Origin: an uncultured Clostridia bacterium
Lineage (GTDB): Bacteria; Bacillota; Clostridia; TANB77; CAG-508
Length of the DNA stretch: 64,000 nt
Assembly: GCA_947626735.1 (NCBI GenBank)
Contig: CANQTK010000002.1
Span: 5,551-69,550 of the forward strand
Direction: 5' to 3'
Shown in pieces: positions 43,688 to 48,269 of this stretch. The notes below the pieces were generated by a model. It ran no database searches and was not told the DNA's origin. It worked only from the letters and a program-made list of their open reading frames with translations. Within the stretch, counting starts at the first letter, position 1; every line of letters starts with the position of its first letter. The position numbers and the translations under genes are program-made.

Positions 43688-45805
43688 ATGGCAGACAAAT
43701 TGATTATTGTGGAATCACCAGCTAAAGCCAATACGATAAAGAAGTTCCTAGGTGGTAATACGAAAGTAGTAGCATCTATGGGACATATTAGAGACCTTCC
43801 AAAATCGAAAATGGGAGTAAATATTGAGGGAGATTTTGAACCAGAATATATTAACATTAGAGGAAAAGGAGATTTAATAAAATCTCTAAAAAAAGAAGCT
43901 TCGGTTGCAAAACAAGTGTATTTAGCCACTGACCCTGACCGTGAAGGAGAGGCCATTGCTTGGCATTTGGCACATATATTAGAAATTCCAGAAGATAGCG
44001 TATGTAGAGTTACCTTTAATGAAATTACCAAAGAGACGGTGCAAGAGGCAATGAAACATCCTAGAAAAATAAACTTAGATGTAAAAGATGCACAACAAGC
44101 ACGTCGTGTATTAGATAGAATTGTCGGCTACAAAATGAGTCCAGTCCTTTGGAAAAAAGTAAAAAGAGGATTATCAGCAGGTAGAGTGCAATCGGTAGCA
44201 GTAAAATTAATTGTTGATAGAGAAGAAGAAATTGAAAAATTTATTCCAGAAGAATATTGGAATATCTATGTTTCTTTATTACAGGAATCTTCAAAACAAA
44301 CATTGGAAGCACATTTTTATGGAAAAAATGGGAAAAAACAAGATATTCATACAAAGGAAGAAGTAGATATTATTTTAAAAGATATTGAAAAAGCAAAATT
44401 CATTGTAGATAATATCAAAAAAAGTGAGAAAAAAAGAACACCAGCACCACCATTTACAACTAGTACCATGCAACAAGAAGCTTCCAGAAAATTAGGATTT
44501 ACGTTAAAGAAAACCATGTCTGTAGCACAAGGGTTATATGAAGGAGTAAAAGTAGAGGAAAAAGGGACTGTTGGTTTAATTACTTACATGAGAACAGACT
44601 CTACTAGAATTTCAGAAGAAGCAAGAAGTGCTGCCAAAAAGCACATTGTAAAAGAATATGGAGAAAACTATTACGAAAATCGTTATTACAAAACCAGCAA
44701 AGATGCACAAGACGCACACGAAGCTATCAGGCCAACTTACGTAGAGTTAGAACCAGAAAAAATAAAAGCTTCTTTAACATCAGACCAATACAAGTTATAT
44801 AAACTAATTTATCATCGTTTTATTGCAAGCCAAATGGCTGCCGCTGTTTTTGATACAGTAGCTGTTGATATTAAGGCAAATGACTATCTATTCAAAGCCA
44901 ATGGGCAAACTTTAAAATTTAAAGGTTTTATGATCTTATATGTAGAATCTGAAGATAGTAGAAAAGAAGAAAAGAAAAAAGAACAAGAAGATGCATTGCC
45001 AGAATTAAAAGAAAAAGAAGAATTAAAAAAGCAAAAAGTAGAGCCAAAACAAAGCTTTACAGAACCACCACCAAGATATACTGAGGCAAGTTTAGTAAAG
45101 GCATTAGAAGAAAAAGGAATTGGAAGACCAAGTACCTATTCTCCAACCATTACTACGATTTTGGAAAGAAGATATGTTGAGAAAGAACAAAAACAATTAC
45201 TACCAACAGAACTTGGAAAAGTAGTTAATCACTTATTAGTAGAAAACTTTAGTGATATTATCAATGTAGAATTTACAGCTAAAATAGAAGAAGAATTTGA
45301 CGAAGTAGCAGAAGGAAAGGAAGCATGGAAACAGGTAATTAGAGAGTTTTATGCACCTTTTAAAGTAACGGTTGAAAAAGTAGAAAAAGAATTAGAACAT
45401 GTTAAATTAGAAGAAGAAGTTTCCGATGTACCATGTGAAAAATGTGGAAGAATGATGGTTTATAAATATGGAAGATACGGAAAATTCTTAGCTTGTCCAG
45501 GATATCCAGAATGTAAAAATGCAAAGCCAATTATCGAAACCATAGATGTACCATGTCCAGTTTGTGGAGGAAAGGTACAAGTTAGAAAAACAAAAAGAAA
45601 GAGAAATTATTATATTTGTGAAAATAATCCTCAAAGTTGCAATTATATTTCATGGAATAAACCAAAACTAGGAGAAAAGTGGGAGCCAGAAGAAAACGTT
45701 GTAGTGGAAACAAAGAAAAAGACTTCAAGTAAAACAACGAAAACTAAAAAAACAGCAAAAACTGTAAACACGGCAAAGACAAAACGAAAAACAAAGAAAA
45801 AATAA
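43688..45805 (+). CDS. topA: DNA topoisomerase I
   Basis: Start placed at ATG 43688 (AAAAGGAG upstream; MADKLIIVESPAKA is canonical). TOPRIM DPDREGE, active-site Tyr region, three C4 zinc ribbons, Lys-rich tail. Confidence 0.95.
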   Translation: MADKLIIVESPAKANTIKKFLGGNTKVVASMGHIRDLPKSKMGVNIEGDFEPEYINIRGKGDLIKSLKKEASVAKQVYLATDPDREGEAIAWHLAHILEIPEDSVCRVTFNEITKETVQEAMKHPRKINLDVKDAQQARRVLDRIVGYKMSPVLWKKVKRGLSAGRVQSVAVKLIVDREEEIEKFIPEEYWNIYVSLLQESSKQTLEAHFYGKNGKKQDIHTKEEVDIILKDIEKAKFIVDNIKKSEKKRTPAPPFTTSTMQQEASRKLGFTLKKTMSVAQGLYEGVKVEEKGTVGLITYMRTDSTRISEEARSAAKKHIVKEYGENYYENRYYKTSKDAQDAHEAIRPTYVELEPEKIKASLTSDQYKLYKLIYHRFIASQMAAAVFDTVAVDIKANDYLFKANGQTLKFKGFMILYVESEDSRKEEKKKEQEDALPELKEKEELKKQKVEPKQSFTEPPPRYTEASLVKALEEKGIGRPSTYSPTITTILERRYVEKEQKQLLPTELGKVVNHLLVENFSDIINVEFTAKIEEEFDEVAEGKEAWKQVIREFYAPFKVTVEKVEKELEHVKLEEEVSDVPCEKCGRMMVYKYGRYGKFLACPGYPECKNAKPIIETIDVPCPVCGGKVQVRKTKRKRNYYICENNPQSCNYISWNKPKLGEKWEPEENVVVETKKKTSSKTTKTKKTAKTVNTAKTKRKTKKK

Positions 45806-45822
45806 ATTTCAATTGGAAACTA

Positions 45823-45851
45823 TTGACATTTGTGAAAAGATAGAGTAAAAT
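45823..45851 (+). promoter_or_regulatory. orphan sigma-A-like promoter driving a roughly 70 nt transcript into the shared terminator
   Basis: TTGACA (45823-45828), 17 nt spacer, TAAAAT (45846-45851). Confidence 0.45.
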
Positions 45852-45857
45852 AAAAAT

Positions 45858-45926
45858 AGCAAAGTAACTTTAAGAGTTCTCAAAGTAATCAAAAAAAAAA
45901 CCACGAGCGGCTACTCGTGGTTTTTT
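45858..45926 (+). ncRNA. candidate small antisense RNA (antitoxin-like), ends approximate
   Basis: Promoter at 45823-45851. Two direct repeats CAAAGTAA (45860-45867, 45881-45888) complementary to UUGYUUUG sites in the convergent mRNA. Ends at hairpin CCACGAG..CTCGTGG + T6. No ORF. Confidence 0.35.
45891..45926. terminator. bidirectional terminator shared by topA/sRNA (+) and small ORF (-); copy 1 of CCACGAG..CTCGTGG module
   Basis: A10-CCACGAGcggctaCTCGTGG-T6, followed by GCACTATGTATT (45930-45941). Confidence 0.75.
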
Positions 45927-45932
45927 CTTGCA

Positions 45933-46007
45933 CTATGTATTAGAACCAAATTCTTTAAGAATAAGATAAAGGAATAATAGTGCTAGCAACTTAAAGATAT
46001 TCTTCAA
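45933..46007 (-). CDS. candidate 24-aa hydrophobic peptide (type I toxin-like): MKNIFKLLALLFLYLILKEFGSNT
   Basis: GGAGGTG (46020-46014) 6 nt upstream of a TTG start. One predicted TM helix plus a polar tail. Own promoter at 46081-46053; terminator immediately after the stop. Confidence 0.4.
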   Translation of the reverse strand: MKNIFKLLALLFLYLILKEFGSNT

Positions 46008-46052
46008 AGCAATCACCTCCTTTAAAAAATACTCTCTAAATGAGGCAAAACA

Positions 46053-46081
46053 ATTATATTATGTAAATATATAGAATGCAA
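46053..46081 (-). promoter_or_regulatory. near-consensus sigma-A promoter for the small ORF
   Basis: Minus strand TTGCAT (46081-46076), 17 nt spacer, TATAAT (46058-46053). Confidence 0.55.
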
Positions 46082-46136
46082 GAAAAATCGTAAGACAGAA
46101 ATCGACAAAAAAAATTCATAAAATTTCATAAAAGGC

Positions 46137-46165
46137 TTGCATTTGCAAGCTTTTTGTGTTATGAT
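46137..46165 (+). promoter_or_regulatory. sigma-A-like promoter (extended -10) upstream of rpsB
   Basis: TTGCAT (46137-46142), 17 nt spacer, TGtTATGAT (-10 at 46160-46165); about 115 nt leader. Confidence 0.5.
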
Positions 46166-46280
46166 AGAAAGCGTTAAAAATACACACACTTTCTTTAGTT
46201 TAAAAAGCGTGCTTATCCAAGATAAGTCTTTTCAAATGTTAGAGGGAGAGTGGAGGAATAACAAAAAGGAGGAATAAAAA

Positions 46281-47084
46281 ATGGCAGTAGTTGCAATGAA
46301 ACAATTACTAGAAGCCGGTGTTCACTTTGGACATCAAACAAGAAGATGGGATCCTAAAATGGCAGAATACATTTTCCAAGCAAGAAATGGTATTCACATT
46401 ATCGATCTACAAAAAACATCTAAAAAATTAGATGAAGCATATGCTTTCATGAAAGAACAAGCAGAAGAGGGCAAAACAGTTTTATTTGTAGGTACAAAAA
46501 AACAAGCCCAAGAATGCATGAAAGAAGCAGCAGAAAAGAGTGGTATGTATTACATTAACCAAAGATGGTTAGGTGGAATGCTTACTAATTTTGGAACTAT
46601 TCGTAAAAGAGTAGAAAGATTGAAAGAATTAGAAACCATGCAAGAAGATGGTACTTTTGATGTACTACCTAAAAAAGAAGTCATTCTTTTAAAGAAAGAA
46701 ATGGAAAAGCTAGAGAAAAACTTAGGTGGAATTAAAGAAATGACGGAAATTCCAGGAGTTCTTTTCGTAGTTGATCCTAAAAAAGAAAGAATTGCTATTT
46801 TAGAAGCTAAAAAATTAGGAATTCCAGTAGTAGGTTTAATTGATACCAACTGTAATCCAGAAGATTTAGATTACCCAATTCCAGGAAACGATGATGCAAT
46901 TCGTGCTGTTAAATTAATTGCAGATACCATGGCAAATGCTATTATTGAAGGAAGACAAGGAGAATCCATGGATATGGATATGCCAGAAGAAGAACATGAA
47001 GAAGAAAGCATTGAAGAAGTGGTAGCAAACGAAGAAGAGACAGAAGAAGTAGCAGAAGAAACAACGAAAACTGTGGAAGAATAA
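46281..47084 (+). CDS. rpsB: 30S ribosomal protein S2
   Basis: [22 protein letters not shown] is canonical; acidic C-terminal tail. Confidence 0.96.
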
Positions 47085-48131: not shown

Positions 48132-48145
48132 AAATAAAGTATCAG

Positions 48146-48195
48146 AAAAACCACGAGATGCAGAGTCGTGGTTTTTCCTTTTTGTATTATGTATT
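48146..48195 (+). terminator. terminator module copy 2 (CCACGA..TCGTGG + T-run + GTATTATGTATT)
   Basis: aaaaaCCACGAgatgcagagTCGTGGttttt ... GTATTATGTATT (48184-48195). Confidence 0.55.
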
Positions 48196-48269
48196 TTTCC
48201 GTCAAAATACGCAAAATATGAATAAAACATAATGACATAAAAGAAAGGAAAGAAAAATAATAAAATCTC

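What the first reader, a model, noticed from the sequence alone, without database searches (positions are those of the whole stretch)
45823..46081. Compact convergent small-peptide / small-RNA locus with par(Fst)-like type I toxin-antitoxin architecture
Minus strand: a near-consensus promoter (TTGCAT-17-TATAAT, 46081-46053), a 5' UTR, GGAGGTG, then a TTG start 6 nt later. The ORF has 24 codons (MKNIFKLLALLFLYLILKEFGSNT: one TM helix plus a polar tail) with a stop at 45935-45933. It is followed by the hairpin CCACGAG..CTCGTGG with a T-run. Plus strand: an orphan promoter (TTGACA-17-TAAAAT, 45823-45851) would make a non-coding RNA of about 70 nt ending at the same hairpin, so the two transcripts overlap at a bidirectional terminator. 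The RNA carries two direct repeats CAAAGTAA (45860-45867, 45881-45888). The mRNA carries two complementary sites UUGUUUUG (46051-46044, at its 5' end) and UUGCUUUG (46011-46004, which includes the TTG start codon). The longer match sRNA UUCUCAAAGUAAUC / mRNA GAUUGCUUUGA gives about 11 consecutive pairs over the spacer and start codon. Convergent transcription, a shared terminator and paired direct repeats masking the initiation region are the hallmark of the Enterococcus par RNA I/RNA II (Fst) system. The peptide has no obvious similarity to Fst beyond its general character, so this could be a new toxin family.
Basis: partly seen in the sequence, partly recalled or inferred. Interest (0 to 1): 0.7.

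Follow-up and report, generated by a model that had tools for sequence, protein, structure and literature searches.

The report
Small toxin gene with antisense RNA
Just after the topA gene of an uncultured gut Clostridia bacterium lies a 24-residue membrane-peptide gene facing a small antisense RNA gene; the two have co-evolved to stay complementary, which marks a probable new toxin family within the known RNA-controlled (type I) toxin-antitoxin systems.

Summary
On the minus strand there is a promoter, a 5' UTR, a 12-nt perfect Shine-Dalgarno (SD) sequence, a TTG start, a 24-codon hydrophobic ORF and a terminator. On the plus strand an 11/12 promoter would give a ~70-nt RNA that ends at the same hairpin. 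The complementarity between the two RNAs is not 8-11 nt. It is about 30 bp (dG -31 kcal/mol; shuffles -14.7±2.8) and covers the SD-start spacer, the start codon and codons 1-9. The module is linked to topA, not rpsB. I found it in four other lineages (TopA 87-95% identical). The peptide is always 24 aa. Both promoters and the 5' UTR are conserved. The RNA's targeting domain is hypervariable yet stays complementary to its own mRNA: 12 pairs carry double changes, and the cognate pairing ranks 1 of 120 permutations. A 5' anti-SD hairpin is conserved. This matches the par (RNA I/RNA II) layout, but the peptide lacks the Fst signature and matches no Pfam, NCBIfam or Rfam family. Best reading: a new toxin family with par-like regulation. 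Neither transcripts nor toxicity have been tested.

The parts
45823..45851 (+). Promoter of the antisense small RNA: -35 TTGACA 45823-45828, 17-nt spacer, -10 TAAAAT 45846-45851
   Evidence: It matches 11 of 12 consensus positions. TTGACA is invariant and the -10 keeps the form TAnnAT in all five lineages (TAAAAT, TATTAT, TAATAT). Only 14% of its columns vary, against 35% of neutral 4-fold sites in topA.
45858..45891 (+). 5' targeting domain of the small RNA. The start of transcription is predicted at about 45858. The domain contains the two CAAAGTAA repeats.
   Evidence: It forms a 30-bp duplex with mRNA 46016-45981, dG -31.1 against -14.7±2.8 in shuffles. It is the most variable segment of the module (60% of columns), yet in every lineage it stays complementary to its own mRNA.
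45892..45929 (.). Shared bidirectional intrinsic terminator: A-run, stem CCACGAG 45901-45907, loop CGGCTA, stem CTCGTGG 45914-45920, T-run. It is also the only terminator downstream of topA.
   Evidence: Supported. The stem is invariant in four lineages. In L107 it is CCACGGA/TCCGTGG, a double compensatory change. The loops vary.
45933..46007 (-). 24-codon ORF with a TTG start, MKNIFKLLALLFLYLILKEFGSNT, stop TAG 45935-45933. It is the putative membrane toxin.
   Evidence: The length and frame are kept in all five lineages with no indels, and L103 uses ATG as its start. Variable sites by codon position are 7/2/9. Between the window and L103, 8 codons differ synonymously and 6 non-synonymously, and the latter are all conservative changes. 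Hydropathy: GRAVY 0.93, best 15-residue stretch 2.29.
45981..46016 (-). Target site of the small RNA on the mRNA: the 3' end of the SD, the spacer, the start codon and codons 1-9
46008..46046 (-). 5' UTR with the SD AAAGGAGGTGAT (46023-46012). The 5'-terminal GCCUC (46046-46042) is an anti-SD that pairs with GAGGU (46019-46015).
   Evidence: Only 8% of columns vary. The closing stem of the anti-SD hairpin is kept in all lineages, even though the inner part of the UTR differs in L107.
46053..46081 (-). Promoter of the peptide mRNA: -35 TTGCAT 46081-46076, 17-nt spacer, -10 TATAAT 46058-46053
   Evidence: Read directly from the sequence. TATAAT is invariant. The -35 is TTGCAT, TTGCTT or TTGCGT in relatives. 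17% of columns vary.
46082..46113 (-). Conserved block upstream of the toxin promoter, with a tandem GAAA(A)ATCG motif. It marks the right-hand end of the conserved module.
   Evidence: 9% of columns vary. Homology with the relatives ends at about 46113. Its function is unknown.

Best explanation
This is a chromosomal type I toxin-antitoxin module with the par (RNA I/RNA II) layout and a toxin of a previously undescribed sequence family.

Inferred steps:
- The minus-strand promoter makes an mRNA of about 150 nt (46046 to about 45893) for a 24-residue peptide with a single membrane-spanning helix.
- The plus-strand promoter makes a small RNA of about 70 nt (45858 to about 45928). Read-through from topA also carries the same sequence, as the topA 3' UTR.
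- The RNA duplex blocks ribosome binding and may also trigger cleavage by a double-strand-specific RNase.
- If the antisense RNA falls, the peptide is made, inserts into the membrane and arrests growth.

Shown in silico and conserved:
- The mRNA 5' end (GCCUC) folds back onto the SD, which would keep translation low.
- The two RNAs are perfectly complementary over the shared terminator.
- They are also imperfectly complementary (30 bp) between the small RNA's 5' domain and the mRNA's spacer, start codon and first nine codons.

Origin (inferred): the targeting domain looks like a degenerate tandem copy of the toxin's 5' region, read from the opposite strand.
For: 1. Anatomy. Promoters, SD, ORF and terminator are all present.

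2. Pairing strength. The intermolecular duplex is -31.1 kcal/mol against -14.7±2.8 for shuffles, with 0 of 1000 shuffles and 0 of 3000 genomic 34-mers as good. After paying opening costs of +18.9 and +3.4, the net is about -9 kcal/mol.

3. Conservation. The module follows topA in L102, L103/L111 and L104/L105/L106/L112, where TopA is 95% identical. A more diverged copy follows sua5 in L107-L109.

4. Peptide. All five versions are 24 aa with no indels: MKNIFKLLALLFLYLILKEFGSNT, MKHIFKLLALLFVYLILKEFGSNT, MKNIFKLLALLLVYLILKEFGSNT, MKNIVKLLALLLVYYILKQFDSNT and MRNLLKLIVLLLIYLILKSFDSDT. Codon position 2 is the least variable.

5. Selection by segment. Against 35% variable neutral sites, the small-RNA promoter shows 14%, the 5' UTR with SD 8% and the toxin promoter 17%, while the targeting domain shows 60%.

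6. Co-evolution.
- Cognate duplexes are -21.7 to -30.7 kcal/mol; non-cognate duplexes average -17.5.
- The L103 and L107 mRNAs bind foreign small RNAs at only -9 to -20 kcal/mol.
- The cognate assignment ranks 1 of 120 permutations.
- On a five-sequence alignment, 86% of cells pair, against 35-46% when the register is slid.
- 12 pairs carry changes on both sides, against 5.3±1.8 in shuffles (0 of 500) and 0-4 when slid.

7. Terminator. Its stem shows a double compensatory change in L107.

8. 5' hairpin. The anti-SD hairpin is kept in all lineages.

9. Match to par. The layout matches the defining list for par-like loci in PMC7472228.
Against: - No transcript, processing or toxicity data exist, and both transcription starts are predicted from the promoters.
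- The peptide matches no known toxin family and lacks the Fst/Ldr signature.
- At 24 aa with a lysine inside the hydrophobic stretch, it is a marginal membrane span.
- The covariation alignment was fitted by hand to the duplex and has only five sequences.
- Because the paired regions are DNA direct repeats, gene conversion could produce the same 'compensatory' pattern without independent mutations.
- The family was found only in one narrow clade of uncultured Clostridia.
- Scans of JGI metagenomes, viral contigs, plasmids and phages found nothing.
- The -35 of the toxin promoter is weak.
Confidence: 0.65

Rival explanations
1. The pair is a real antisense-regulated small-protein gene, but the peptide is not a toxin. 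It would be a small membrane protein with a regulatory or accessory role, such as modulating a transporter or sensor, whose synthesis is kept tightly controlled by the small RNA.
For: All the conservation and pairing evidence shows regulation, not toxicity. There is no hit to any toxin family. The module sits in the core chromosome next to housekeeping genes, not on an obvious mobile element.
Against: - The complete par-like layout, including the shared terminator and the SD-hiding 5' hairpin, is so far described for toxin genes (PMC7472228).
- The family shows the copy-number and position turnover, and the decay, typical of toxin-antitoxin loci. It lies after topA, after sua5, and as degenerate remnants after tsf, and it is absent from close relatives.
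- The rapid co-diversification of the targeting domain suggests selection for specificity between paralogous pairs.
Confidence: 0.22
2. There is no independent small RNA. The plus-strand region is only the 3' UTR and terminator of topA. The promoter-like motif is not used, or is only a minor internal promoter. Any antisense control of the minus-strand gene comes from topA read-through.
For: There is no terminator between the topA stop (45805) and the hairpin, so topA transcripts must carry the antisense sequence. The copies after sua5 and tsf likewise sit directly behind a gene on the same strand.
Against: The TTGACA-17-TAnnAT motif is conserved (14% variable, against 60% immediately downstream) in all five lineages, including the copy behind a different gene. 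The predicted start falls exactly at the first paired nucleotide.
Confidence: 0.08
3. There is no function. The hairpin is simply the topA terminator, the ORF is a chance open frame in AT-rich DNA, and the direct repeat is a neutral tandem duplication kept similar by gene conversion.
For: AT-rich spacers contain many promoter-like hexamers and short hydrophobic frames. The similarity of the two units extends over about 62 nt, as a duplication would give.
Against: - The 12-nt perfect SD is unique in the window.
- The 24-codon frame is kept without indels over up to about 24% nucleotide divergence in the ORF (window vs L103), with a start-codon switch in one lineage.
- The UTR and both promoters are far below the neutral rate.
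- The pattern of variation by codon position fits a coding sequence.
Confidence: 0.05

Closest known systems
par of Enterococcus faecalis plasmid pAD1 and chromosomal par-like loci (RNA I encoding Fst, with RNA II)
   Same: Both have convergent promoters and a shared bidirectional intrinsic terminator that gives complementary 3' ends. Both have DNA direct repeats transcribed in opposite directions, giving a second region of complementarity that covers the translation start. Both have a 5' stem-loop in the toxin mRNA that hides the SD. In both, the repeat sequences are poorly conserved between loci, which gives specificity (PMC7472228; here).
   Different: - The peptide is 24 aa rather than about 30-33.
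- It has no tryptophan (or valine) before a highly charged C-terminal tail, no P/D/S/TxxxG motif, and no hit in Pfam (which, by my own knowledge, includes the Fst toxin model PF13955) or in NCBIfam.
- The pairing is one nearly continuous 30-bp region rather than two short separate repeats.
- There is no YUNR U-turn motif in the terminator loop (UAGCCG).
- There is no hit to any Rfam antitoxin RNA family.
- The host is an uncultured gut Clostridia lineage.
sprA1/SprA1AS of Staphylococcus aureus
   Same: Both are convergent genes that overlap at their 3' ends. In both, repression is exerted through the non-overlapping 5' domain of the antisense RNA, which pairs with the ribosome-binding site and start of the toxin mRNA (PMC8309996).
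   Different: PepA1 is a 30-aa member of the Fst family with the PxxxGC motif, and it is unrelated in sequence to this peptide.
Bacillus subtilis bsrG/SR4 and txpA/RatA
   Same: These are also small hydrophobic toxins with convergent antisense RNAs that overlap at the 3' end. SR4 binding also changes the mRNA fold around the SD (title and abstract of PMC3834814; the rest is from my own knowledge).
   Different: In those systems the interaction is through the long 3' overlap itself. There is no separate repeat-derived 5' domain that targets the start codon.
Short E. coli type I toxins IbsC (19 aa) and ShoB (26 aa)
   Same: The peptides are comparably tiny, consist almost entirely of one hydrophobic helix, and are repressed by antisense RNAs (PMC8309996).
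   Different: The gene layout differs: Sib is fully overlapping and OhsC is divergent. They come from a different phylum and share no sequence similarity with this peptide.

Membership tests
par-like type I toxin-antitoxin locus (regulatory architecture) | Toxin mRNA and small RNA transcribed from convergent promoters | tested here: met
   Both promoter motifs are present and conserved in five lineages. Met at the sequence level only; the transcripts themselves are not testable here.
par-like type I toxin-antitoxin locus (regulatory architecture) | A shared bidirectional intrinsic terminator giving complementary 3' stem-loops | tested here: met
   The hairpin at 45892-45929 has an A-run and a T-run. 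Its stem carries a compensatory change in L107.
par-like type I toxin-antitoxin locus (regulatory architecture) | DNA direct repeats read in opposite directions, giving complementarity over the toxin's translation start | tested here: met
   The direct repeat was found. The 30-bp duplex covers the spacer, the start codon and codons 1-9. It is maintained by co-variation.
par-like type I toxin-antitoxin locus (regulatory architecture) | An intramolecular 5' stem-loop in the toxin mRNA that sequesters the SD | tested here: met
   5' GCCUC pairs with GAGGU of the SD in the consensus folds of all lineages. This is a prediction only and depends on the predicted 5' end.
par-like type I toxin-antitoxin locus (regulatory architecture) | A YUNR U-turn motif in the terminator loop of the toxin mRNA (not universal in the family) | tested here: not met
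   The loop is UAGCCG on the mRNA and CGGCUA on the small RNA, and neither contains YUNR. The review states that not all homologs have this motif.
Fst/Ldr toxin superfamily | [quoted passage not shown] | tested here: not met
   MKNIFKLLALLFLYLILKEFGSNT has no W, no P, no xxxG motif, and a polar tail that is not highly charged. There is no Pfam or NCBIfam hit at E up to 10.
Rfam antitoxin or toxin-mRNA RNA families | A match to a curated covariance model | tested here: not met
   No family reaches its gathering score in the window. Between 45823 and 46081 the only hit at E up to 10 is a chance microRNA match to the terminator.
Type I toxin-antitoxin systems in general | A small (<60 aa) hydrophobic peptide with a predicted membrane helix | tested here: met
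   24 aa, GRAVY 0.70-0.99, best 15-residue stretch 2.1-2.4 in the four closest versions (window, L104, L102, L103); the L107 peptide was not scored but is likewise dominated by hydrophobic residues.
Type I toxin-antitoxin systems in general | The peptide is toxic when over-produced, and the RNA neutralises it by blocking translation or destabilising the mRNA | not testable with these tools
   This needs expression experiments.

The most novel reading that the evidence does not exclude
The module is functionally tied to the housekeeping gene in front of it.

Every copy found sits directly behind a gene on the same strand: topA, sua5, or tsf for the remnants. For topA in the window, and apparently for tsf, it provides that gene's only terminator. 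As a result the antitoxin sequence is always co-transcribed as that gene's 3' UTR.

Toxin repression would then report on transcription of an essential gene. For topA this could be a read-out of supercoiling homeostasis. The cell would also be 'addicted' to keeping the terminator cassette.

A second element of novelty is the antitoxin's origin by tandem duplication of the toxin's own 5' end, followed by rapid co-diversification.
Probability: 0.15. Interest if true: 0.7.

Novelty: new member of a known kind. Interest (0 to 1): 0.5.

Why it matters
Type I toxins are too short and too variable to be found by homology, and almost none are known from the uncultured Clostridia that dominate animal guts. 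Gene callers miss this one: the exact peptide is absent from a collection of 15 billion proteins.

This locus offers three things:
- A new 24-residue toxin candidate.
- A clear natural example of an antisense RNA and its target co-evolving while both change faster than neutral sites.
- Evidence that the par regulatory design is used with a toxin unrelated to Fst.

It also shows that searching by architecture (strong SD, short hydrophobic ORF, terminator and a repeat beyond it) can recover such loci. The peptide may be of interest as a membrane-active molecule.

Tried and rejected
Searches that found nothing:
- I first looked for the element next to rpsB in 80 related species. Only the rpsB promoter and leader were conserved there, and three relatives with topA-rpsB synteny lack the element. 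This nearly led to the conclusion that the element is unique. The link turned out to be with topA.
- Exact-protein look-ups with RpsB, Tsf and MurG gave only short contigs of the same strain. The look-up with the window's own TopA found no record at all.
- blastn of the locus and tblastn of the peptide against plasmids, and blastn against phages, gave only noise or nothing.
- A tolerant codon-class pattern for the peptide returned 1 hit in viral contigs and 16 in JGI metagenomes. All were chance matches inside other genes or lacked a start codon.
- The search for homologous proteins and the search for related loci refuse queries this short.
- The peptide gave no hit in Pfam, NCBIfam or PADLOC, and there was no Rfam hit.

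Readings I rejected:
- The GTG start giving a 27-aa ORF is out of frame in L103.
- The long hairpin that is the minimum-energy fold of the window's mRNA (UTR paired with codons 1-8) is not conserved; the anti-SD hairpin is.
- The 24-codon frame antisense to the small RNA (45883-45809) is not a second toxin gene: it has no SD and its peptide is not conserved.

An architecture screen of the window plus the 80 rpsB loci found no second intact module.

Full report
**Setting.** The finding lies in the 475-bp spacer between topA (43688-45805, +) and rpsB (46281-47084, +). The host is an AT-rich, uncultured gut Clostridia bacterium. Its RpsB is 98% identical to that of a rabbit-gut MAG, and close relatives come from human and mouse guts.

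**What is in the sequence.**

Minus strand:
- TTGCAT (46081-46076), 17 nt, TATAAT (46058-46053).
- A 39-nt leader.
- AAAGGAGGTGAT (46023-46012). By my own knowledge of the 16S rRNA 3' end, this is a perfect 12-nt complement. GGAGGTGAT occurs once in the 128 kb of both strands.
- TTG at 46007, followed by 24 codons (MKNIFKLLALLFLYLILKEFGSNT) and TAG at 45935-45933.

Hairpin: CCACGAG/CTCGTGG (45901-45920), with an A-run before it and a T-run after it, so it has a U-tract on either strand.

Plus strand:
- TTGACA-17-TAAAAT (45823-45851), 11 of 12 matches. There are 11 such matches in the window against 3.9±1.9 in dinucleotide shuffles.
- This promoter would start an RNA at about 45858 that ends at the hairpin after about 70 nt.

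The minus-strand -35 matches the consensus at only 3 of 6 positions.

The proposed site UUGUUUUG is really at 46053-46046, between the -10 box and the predicted start, so it is probably not transcribed.

**The pairing is much larger than reported.**
- RNAduplex pairs the whole 34-nt 5' domain of the plus-strand RNA (45858-45891) with mRNA 46016-45981. That region covers the end of the SD, the spacer, the start codon and codons 1-9.
- The duplex has 30 bp in five helices separated by single-nucleotide bulges and small internal loops, with dG -31.1 kcal/mol.
- Dinucleotide shuffles give -14.7±2.8 (0 of 1000 as good), and none of 3000 random 34-mers from the window does as well.
- After opening costs (+18.9 for the mRNA, +3.4 for the small RNA), the interaction is still favourable by about -9 kcal/mol.
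- In DNA terms this is an imperfect direct repeat. Its core is TCAAAGTAATCA / TCAAAGCAATCA, and similarity extends over about 62 nt (45891-45829 against 46015-45954, p about 0.005).
- The second unit even keeps a 24-codon TTG frame but has no SD. The targeting domain therefore looks like a degenerate tandem copy of the toxin's 5' end, read from the other strand. This is an inference.

**Finding relatives.**
- The 80 rpsB loci from related species share only the rpsB promoter and leader (window 46080-46280). They share nothing from 45823-46080.
- Three relatives that do have topA next to rpsB lack the element.
- Plasmid, phage, viral-contig and JGI-metagenome searches were negative or returned noise.
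- The link is with topA. A protein search with TopA gave five proteins at 95% identity. Every contig that carries them has the module directly after topA, at 86-91% DNA identity over window 45700-46113: L102, L103=L111, and L104=L105=L106=L112.
- In those genomes the next gene is an SNF2-associated gene rather than rpsB, and homology ends at about 46113.
- A profile of the module then found a more diverged copy in the 87%-TopA clade (L107-L109). It lies after sua5, two genes downstream of topA.

**What conservation shows.** Neutral divergence among the four closest versions is 15-25% pairwise, and 35% of 4-fold sites in topA are variable.

| Segment | Variable columns |
|---|---|
| Small-RNA promoter | 14% |
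| 5' UTR with SD | 8% |
| Toxin promoter | 17% |
| Block upstream of the toxin promoter | 9% |
| ORF | 24-32% |
| Small RNA's targeting domain | 60% |

The ORF is 24 codons in all five lineages and has no indels, whereas the neighbouring targeting domain has several. One lineage changed the start from TTG to ATG with a 1-nt insertion in the spacer. That change keeps the 24-codon frame and puts the upstream GTG out of frame.

The five peptides are:
- MKNIFKLLALLFLYLILKEFGSNT
- MKHIFKLLALLFVYLILKEFGSNT
- MKNIFKLLALLLVYLILKEFGSNT
- MKNIVKLLALLLVYYILKQFDSNT
- MRNLLKLIVLLLIYLILKSFDSDT

Among the four closest versions, variable sites fall 7/2/9 on codon positions 1/2/3, and the replacements are conservative. 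This fits a translated, hydrophobic peptide.

**Co-evolution of the two RNAs.**
- Each lineage's small RNA pairs well with its own mRNA: -29.3, -25.3, -24.0, -21.7 and -30.7 kcal/mol.
- The L103 mRNA binds the other small RNAs at only -9.1 to -12.7. The L107 mRNA binds them at -11.1 to -19.6.
- The cognate assignment gives the best total energy of all 120 permutations.
- On a five-sequence alignment of the duplex, 86% of cells form standard pairs. Shuffles give 79.0±1.5 (0 of 500 as high), and slid registers give 35-46%.
- 12 pairs carry changes on both sides, against 5.3±1.8 in shuffles (0 of 500) and 0-4 when slid. The covariation score is 0.297 against 0.185±0.025. With four sequences the trend was the same but weaker.

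Caveats:
- I placed the gaps in that alignment by hand to follow each duplex.
- There are only five sequences.
- Because the partners are DNA direct repeats, gene conversion could create matched changes. The 19-nt perfect repeat in L103 suggests exactly that.
- Either way, complementarity is being actively maintained while both partners change faster than neutral sites.

**Other structures.**
- The terminator stem is invariant in four lineages and is CCACGGA/TCCGTGG in L107, a double compensatory change. The loops differ.
- In the window, the minimum-energy fold of the mRNA is a long hairpin between the UTR and codons 1-8. That fold is not conserved.
- The conserved fold pairs the 5'-terminal GCCUC with GAGGU of the SD. 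This closing stem is kept even in L107, where the inner UTR differs and is 8 nt longer.
- The same anti-SD hairpin appears in the small-RNA-bound cofold.

**Interpretation.** Weaver's review defines par-like loci by four features: convergent promoters, a shared bidirectional terminator, direct repeats transcribed in opposite directions that mask the translation start, and a 5' stem-loop that hides the SD. It also notes that the repeat sequences are poorly conserved between loci, which gives specificity (PMC7472228). All of these are met here.

The toxin signature of the Fst/Ldr superfamily is not met. That signature is a tryptophan before a highly charged tail plus a PxxxG motif. There is also no Pfam, NCBIfam, PADLOC or Rfam hit.

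I therefore file this as a type I toxin-antitoxin module that works like par but carries a toxin of a new sequence family. SprA1/SprA1AS is the other close analogue, because its antisense RNA acts through its non-overlapping 5' domain on the ribosome-binding site (PMC8309996). Toxicity is the main unproven step, and a non-toxic small membrane protein under antisense control is the serious rival.

**Dynamics of the family.**
- The family is patchy. It is present after topA in one sub-clade and after sua5 in another. It is absent from L011, L013, L014 and L115.
- Decayed copies follow tsf. L001 keeps the terminator and the frame 'KNILSIDIVLLFLYLILKSFD*' but has no SD or start codon. The window keeps only the terminator and a few flanking bases.
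- A relative with 83% TopA identity has, at the same place after topA, a different 29-codon ORF facing a small RNA. That RNA pairs over the ORF's start codon (-25.0 against -13.1±2.7).
- Every copy sits right behind a gene on the same strand and supplies or shares its terminator, so the antitoxin sequence is also part of that gene's 3' UTR. This is the basis of the more speculative reading, in which toxin control is coupled to transcription of the upstream housekeeping gene.

**Verdict.** It is a new family within a known kind of system and awaits transcript and toxicity experiments.

Noticed in passing
window 48145-48215; L001:4815-4935: A decayed second copy of the module lies downstream of tsf. 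L001 keeps the CCACGAG/CTCGTGG terminator and a minus-strand frame 'KNILSIDIVLLFLYLILKSFD*', but has no SD, start codon or promoter. The window keeps only the terminator (CCACGAG 48151-48157, TCGTGG 48166-48171) and the adjoining TGTAyTATGTATTTTTC. The tsf terminator therefore appears to be a relic of a toxin cassette.
   Followed up: partly
L113:4604-5044 (= L114): In a relative with 83% TopA identity, the spacer after topA holds a non-homologous but analogous pair. On the minus strand there is TATAAT, an anti-SD 5' hairpin, AAAGGAGG, ATG and 29 codons (MTSYDLIWLLVQELLSSKTDEKNQDKPKE, which is not hydrophobic). On the plus strand TTGACA-17-TATTAT drives a small RNA whose 5' domain pairs over the start codon (-25.0 against -13.1±2.7). 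The two genes have separate tail-to-tail terminators.
   Followed up: partly
L107:6794-7091 (also L108, L109): A diverged intact copy of the module lies after sua5 in the 87%-TopA clade. A 19-nt tandem duplication (AATATAAAAATTATACTGG, two copies) sits immediately upstream of the small-RNA promoter. The locus is cut off just beyond the toxin promoter.
   Followed up: partly
window 46137-46262: The rpsB promoter is TTGCAT 46137-46142 with an extended -10 TGnTATGAT at 46157-46165. It is followed by a leader that gives a sub-threshold match to Rfam t44 (RF00127; 28.8 bits against a gathering score of 44, E=0.002), which by my own knowledge is the S2-binding rpsB leader. The leader is conserved by blastn in more than 40 related species.
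   Followed up: partly
window about 46113: There is a synteny breakpoint here. Up to about 46113 the window matches the topA-module region of its closest relatives, which continue into SNF2-associated and SNF2 helicase genes. The window instead continues into rpsB-tsf. In the relatives, rpsB is preceded by a GdpP-like gene and an 89-aa divergent gene.
   Followed up: no
window 46082-46113: This block upstream of the toxin -35 is strongly conserved (9% variable columns against 35% neutral). It contains a tandem GAAA(A)ATCG motif and could be a regulator-binding site or an UP element.
   Followed up: no
window 45922-45940 and 46069-46087: A 19-nt inverted repeat (84% complementary), TTTTTCTTGCAyT..., brackets the toxin cassette from just after the stop codon to the -35 box. 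Its 10-11-nt core is kept in relatives. By my rough estimate about 0.3 such repeats are expected by chance in a region this size, so it may mean nothing.
   Followed up: partly
window 45809-45883 (-): A 24-codon TTG frame (MRTLKVTLLFLFYSIFSQMSIVSN) lies antisense to the small-RNA gene. It has the same length as the toxin ORF but no SD. It fits the idea that the antitoxin gene arose by tandem duplication of the toxin gene.
   Followed up: partly
L001:3879 (-), between rpsB and tsf: The architecture screen flagged a 20-codon hydrophobic frame (MLILFYKICSYLFILLLKKE) preceded by AAGGA. I did not examine it further.
   Followed up: no
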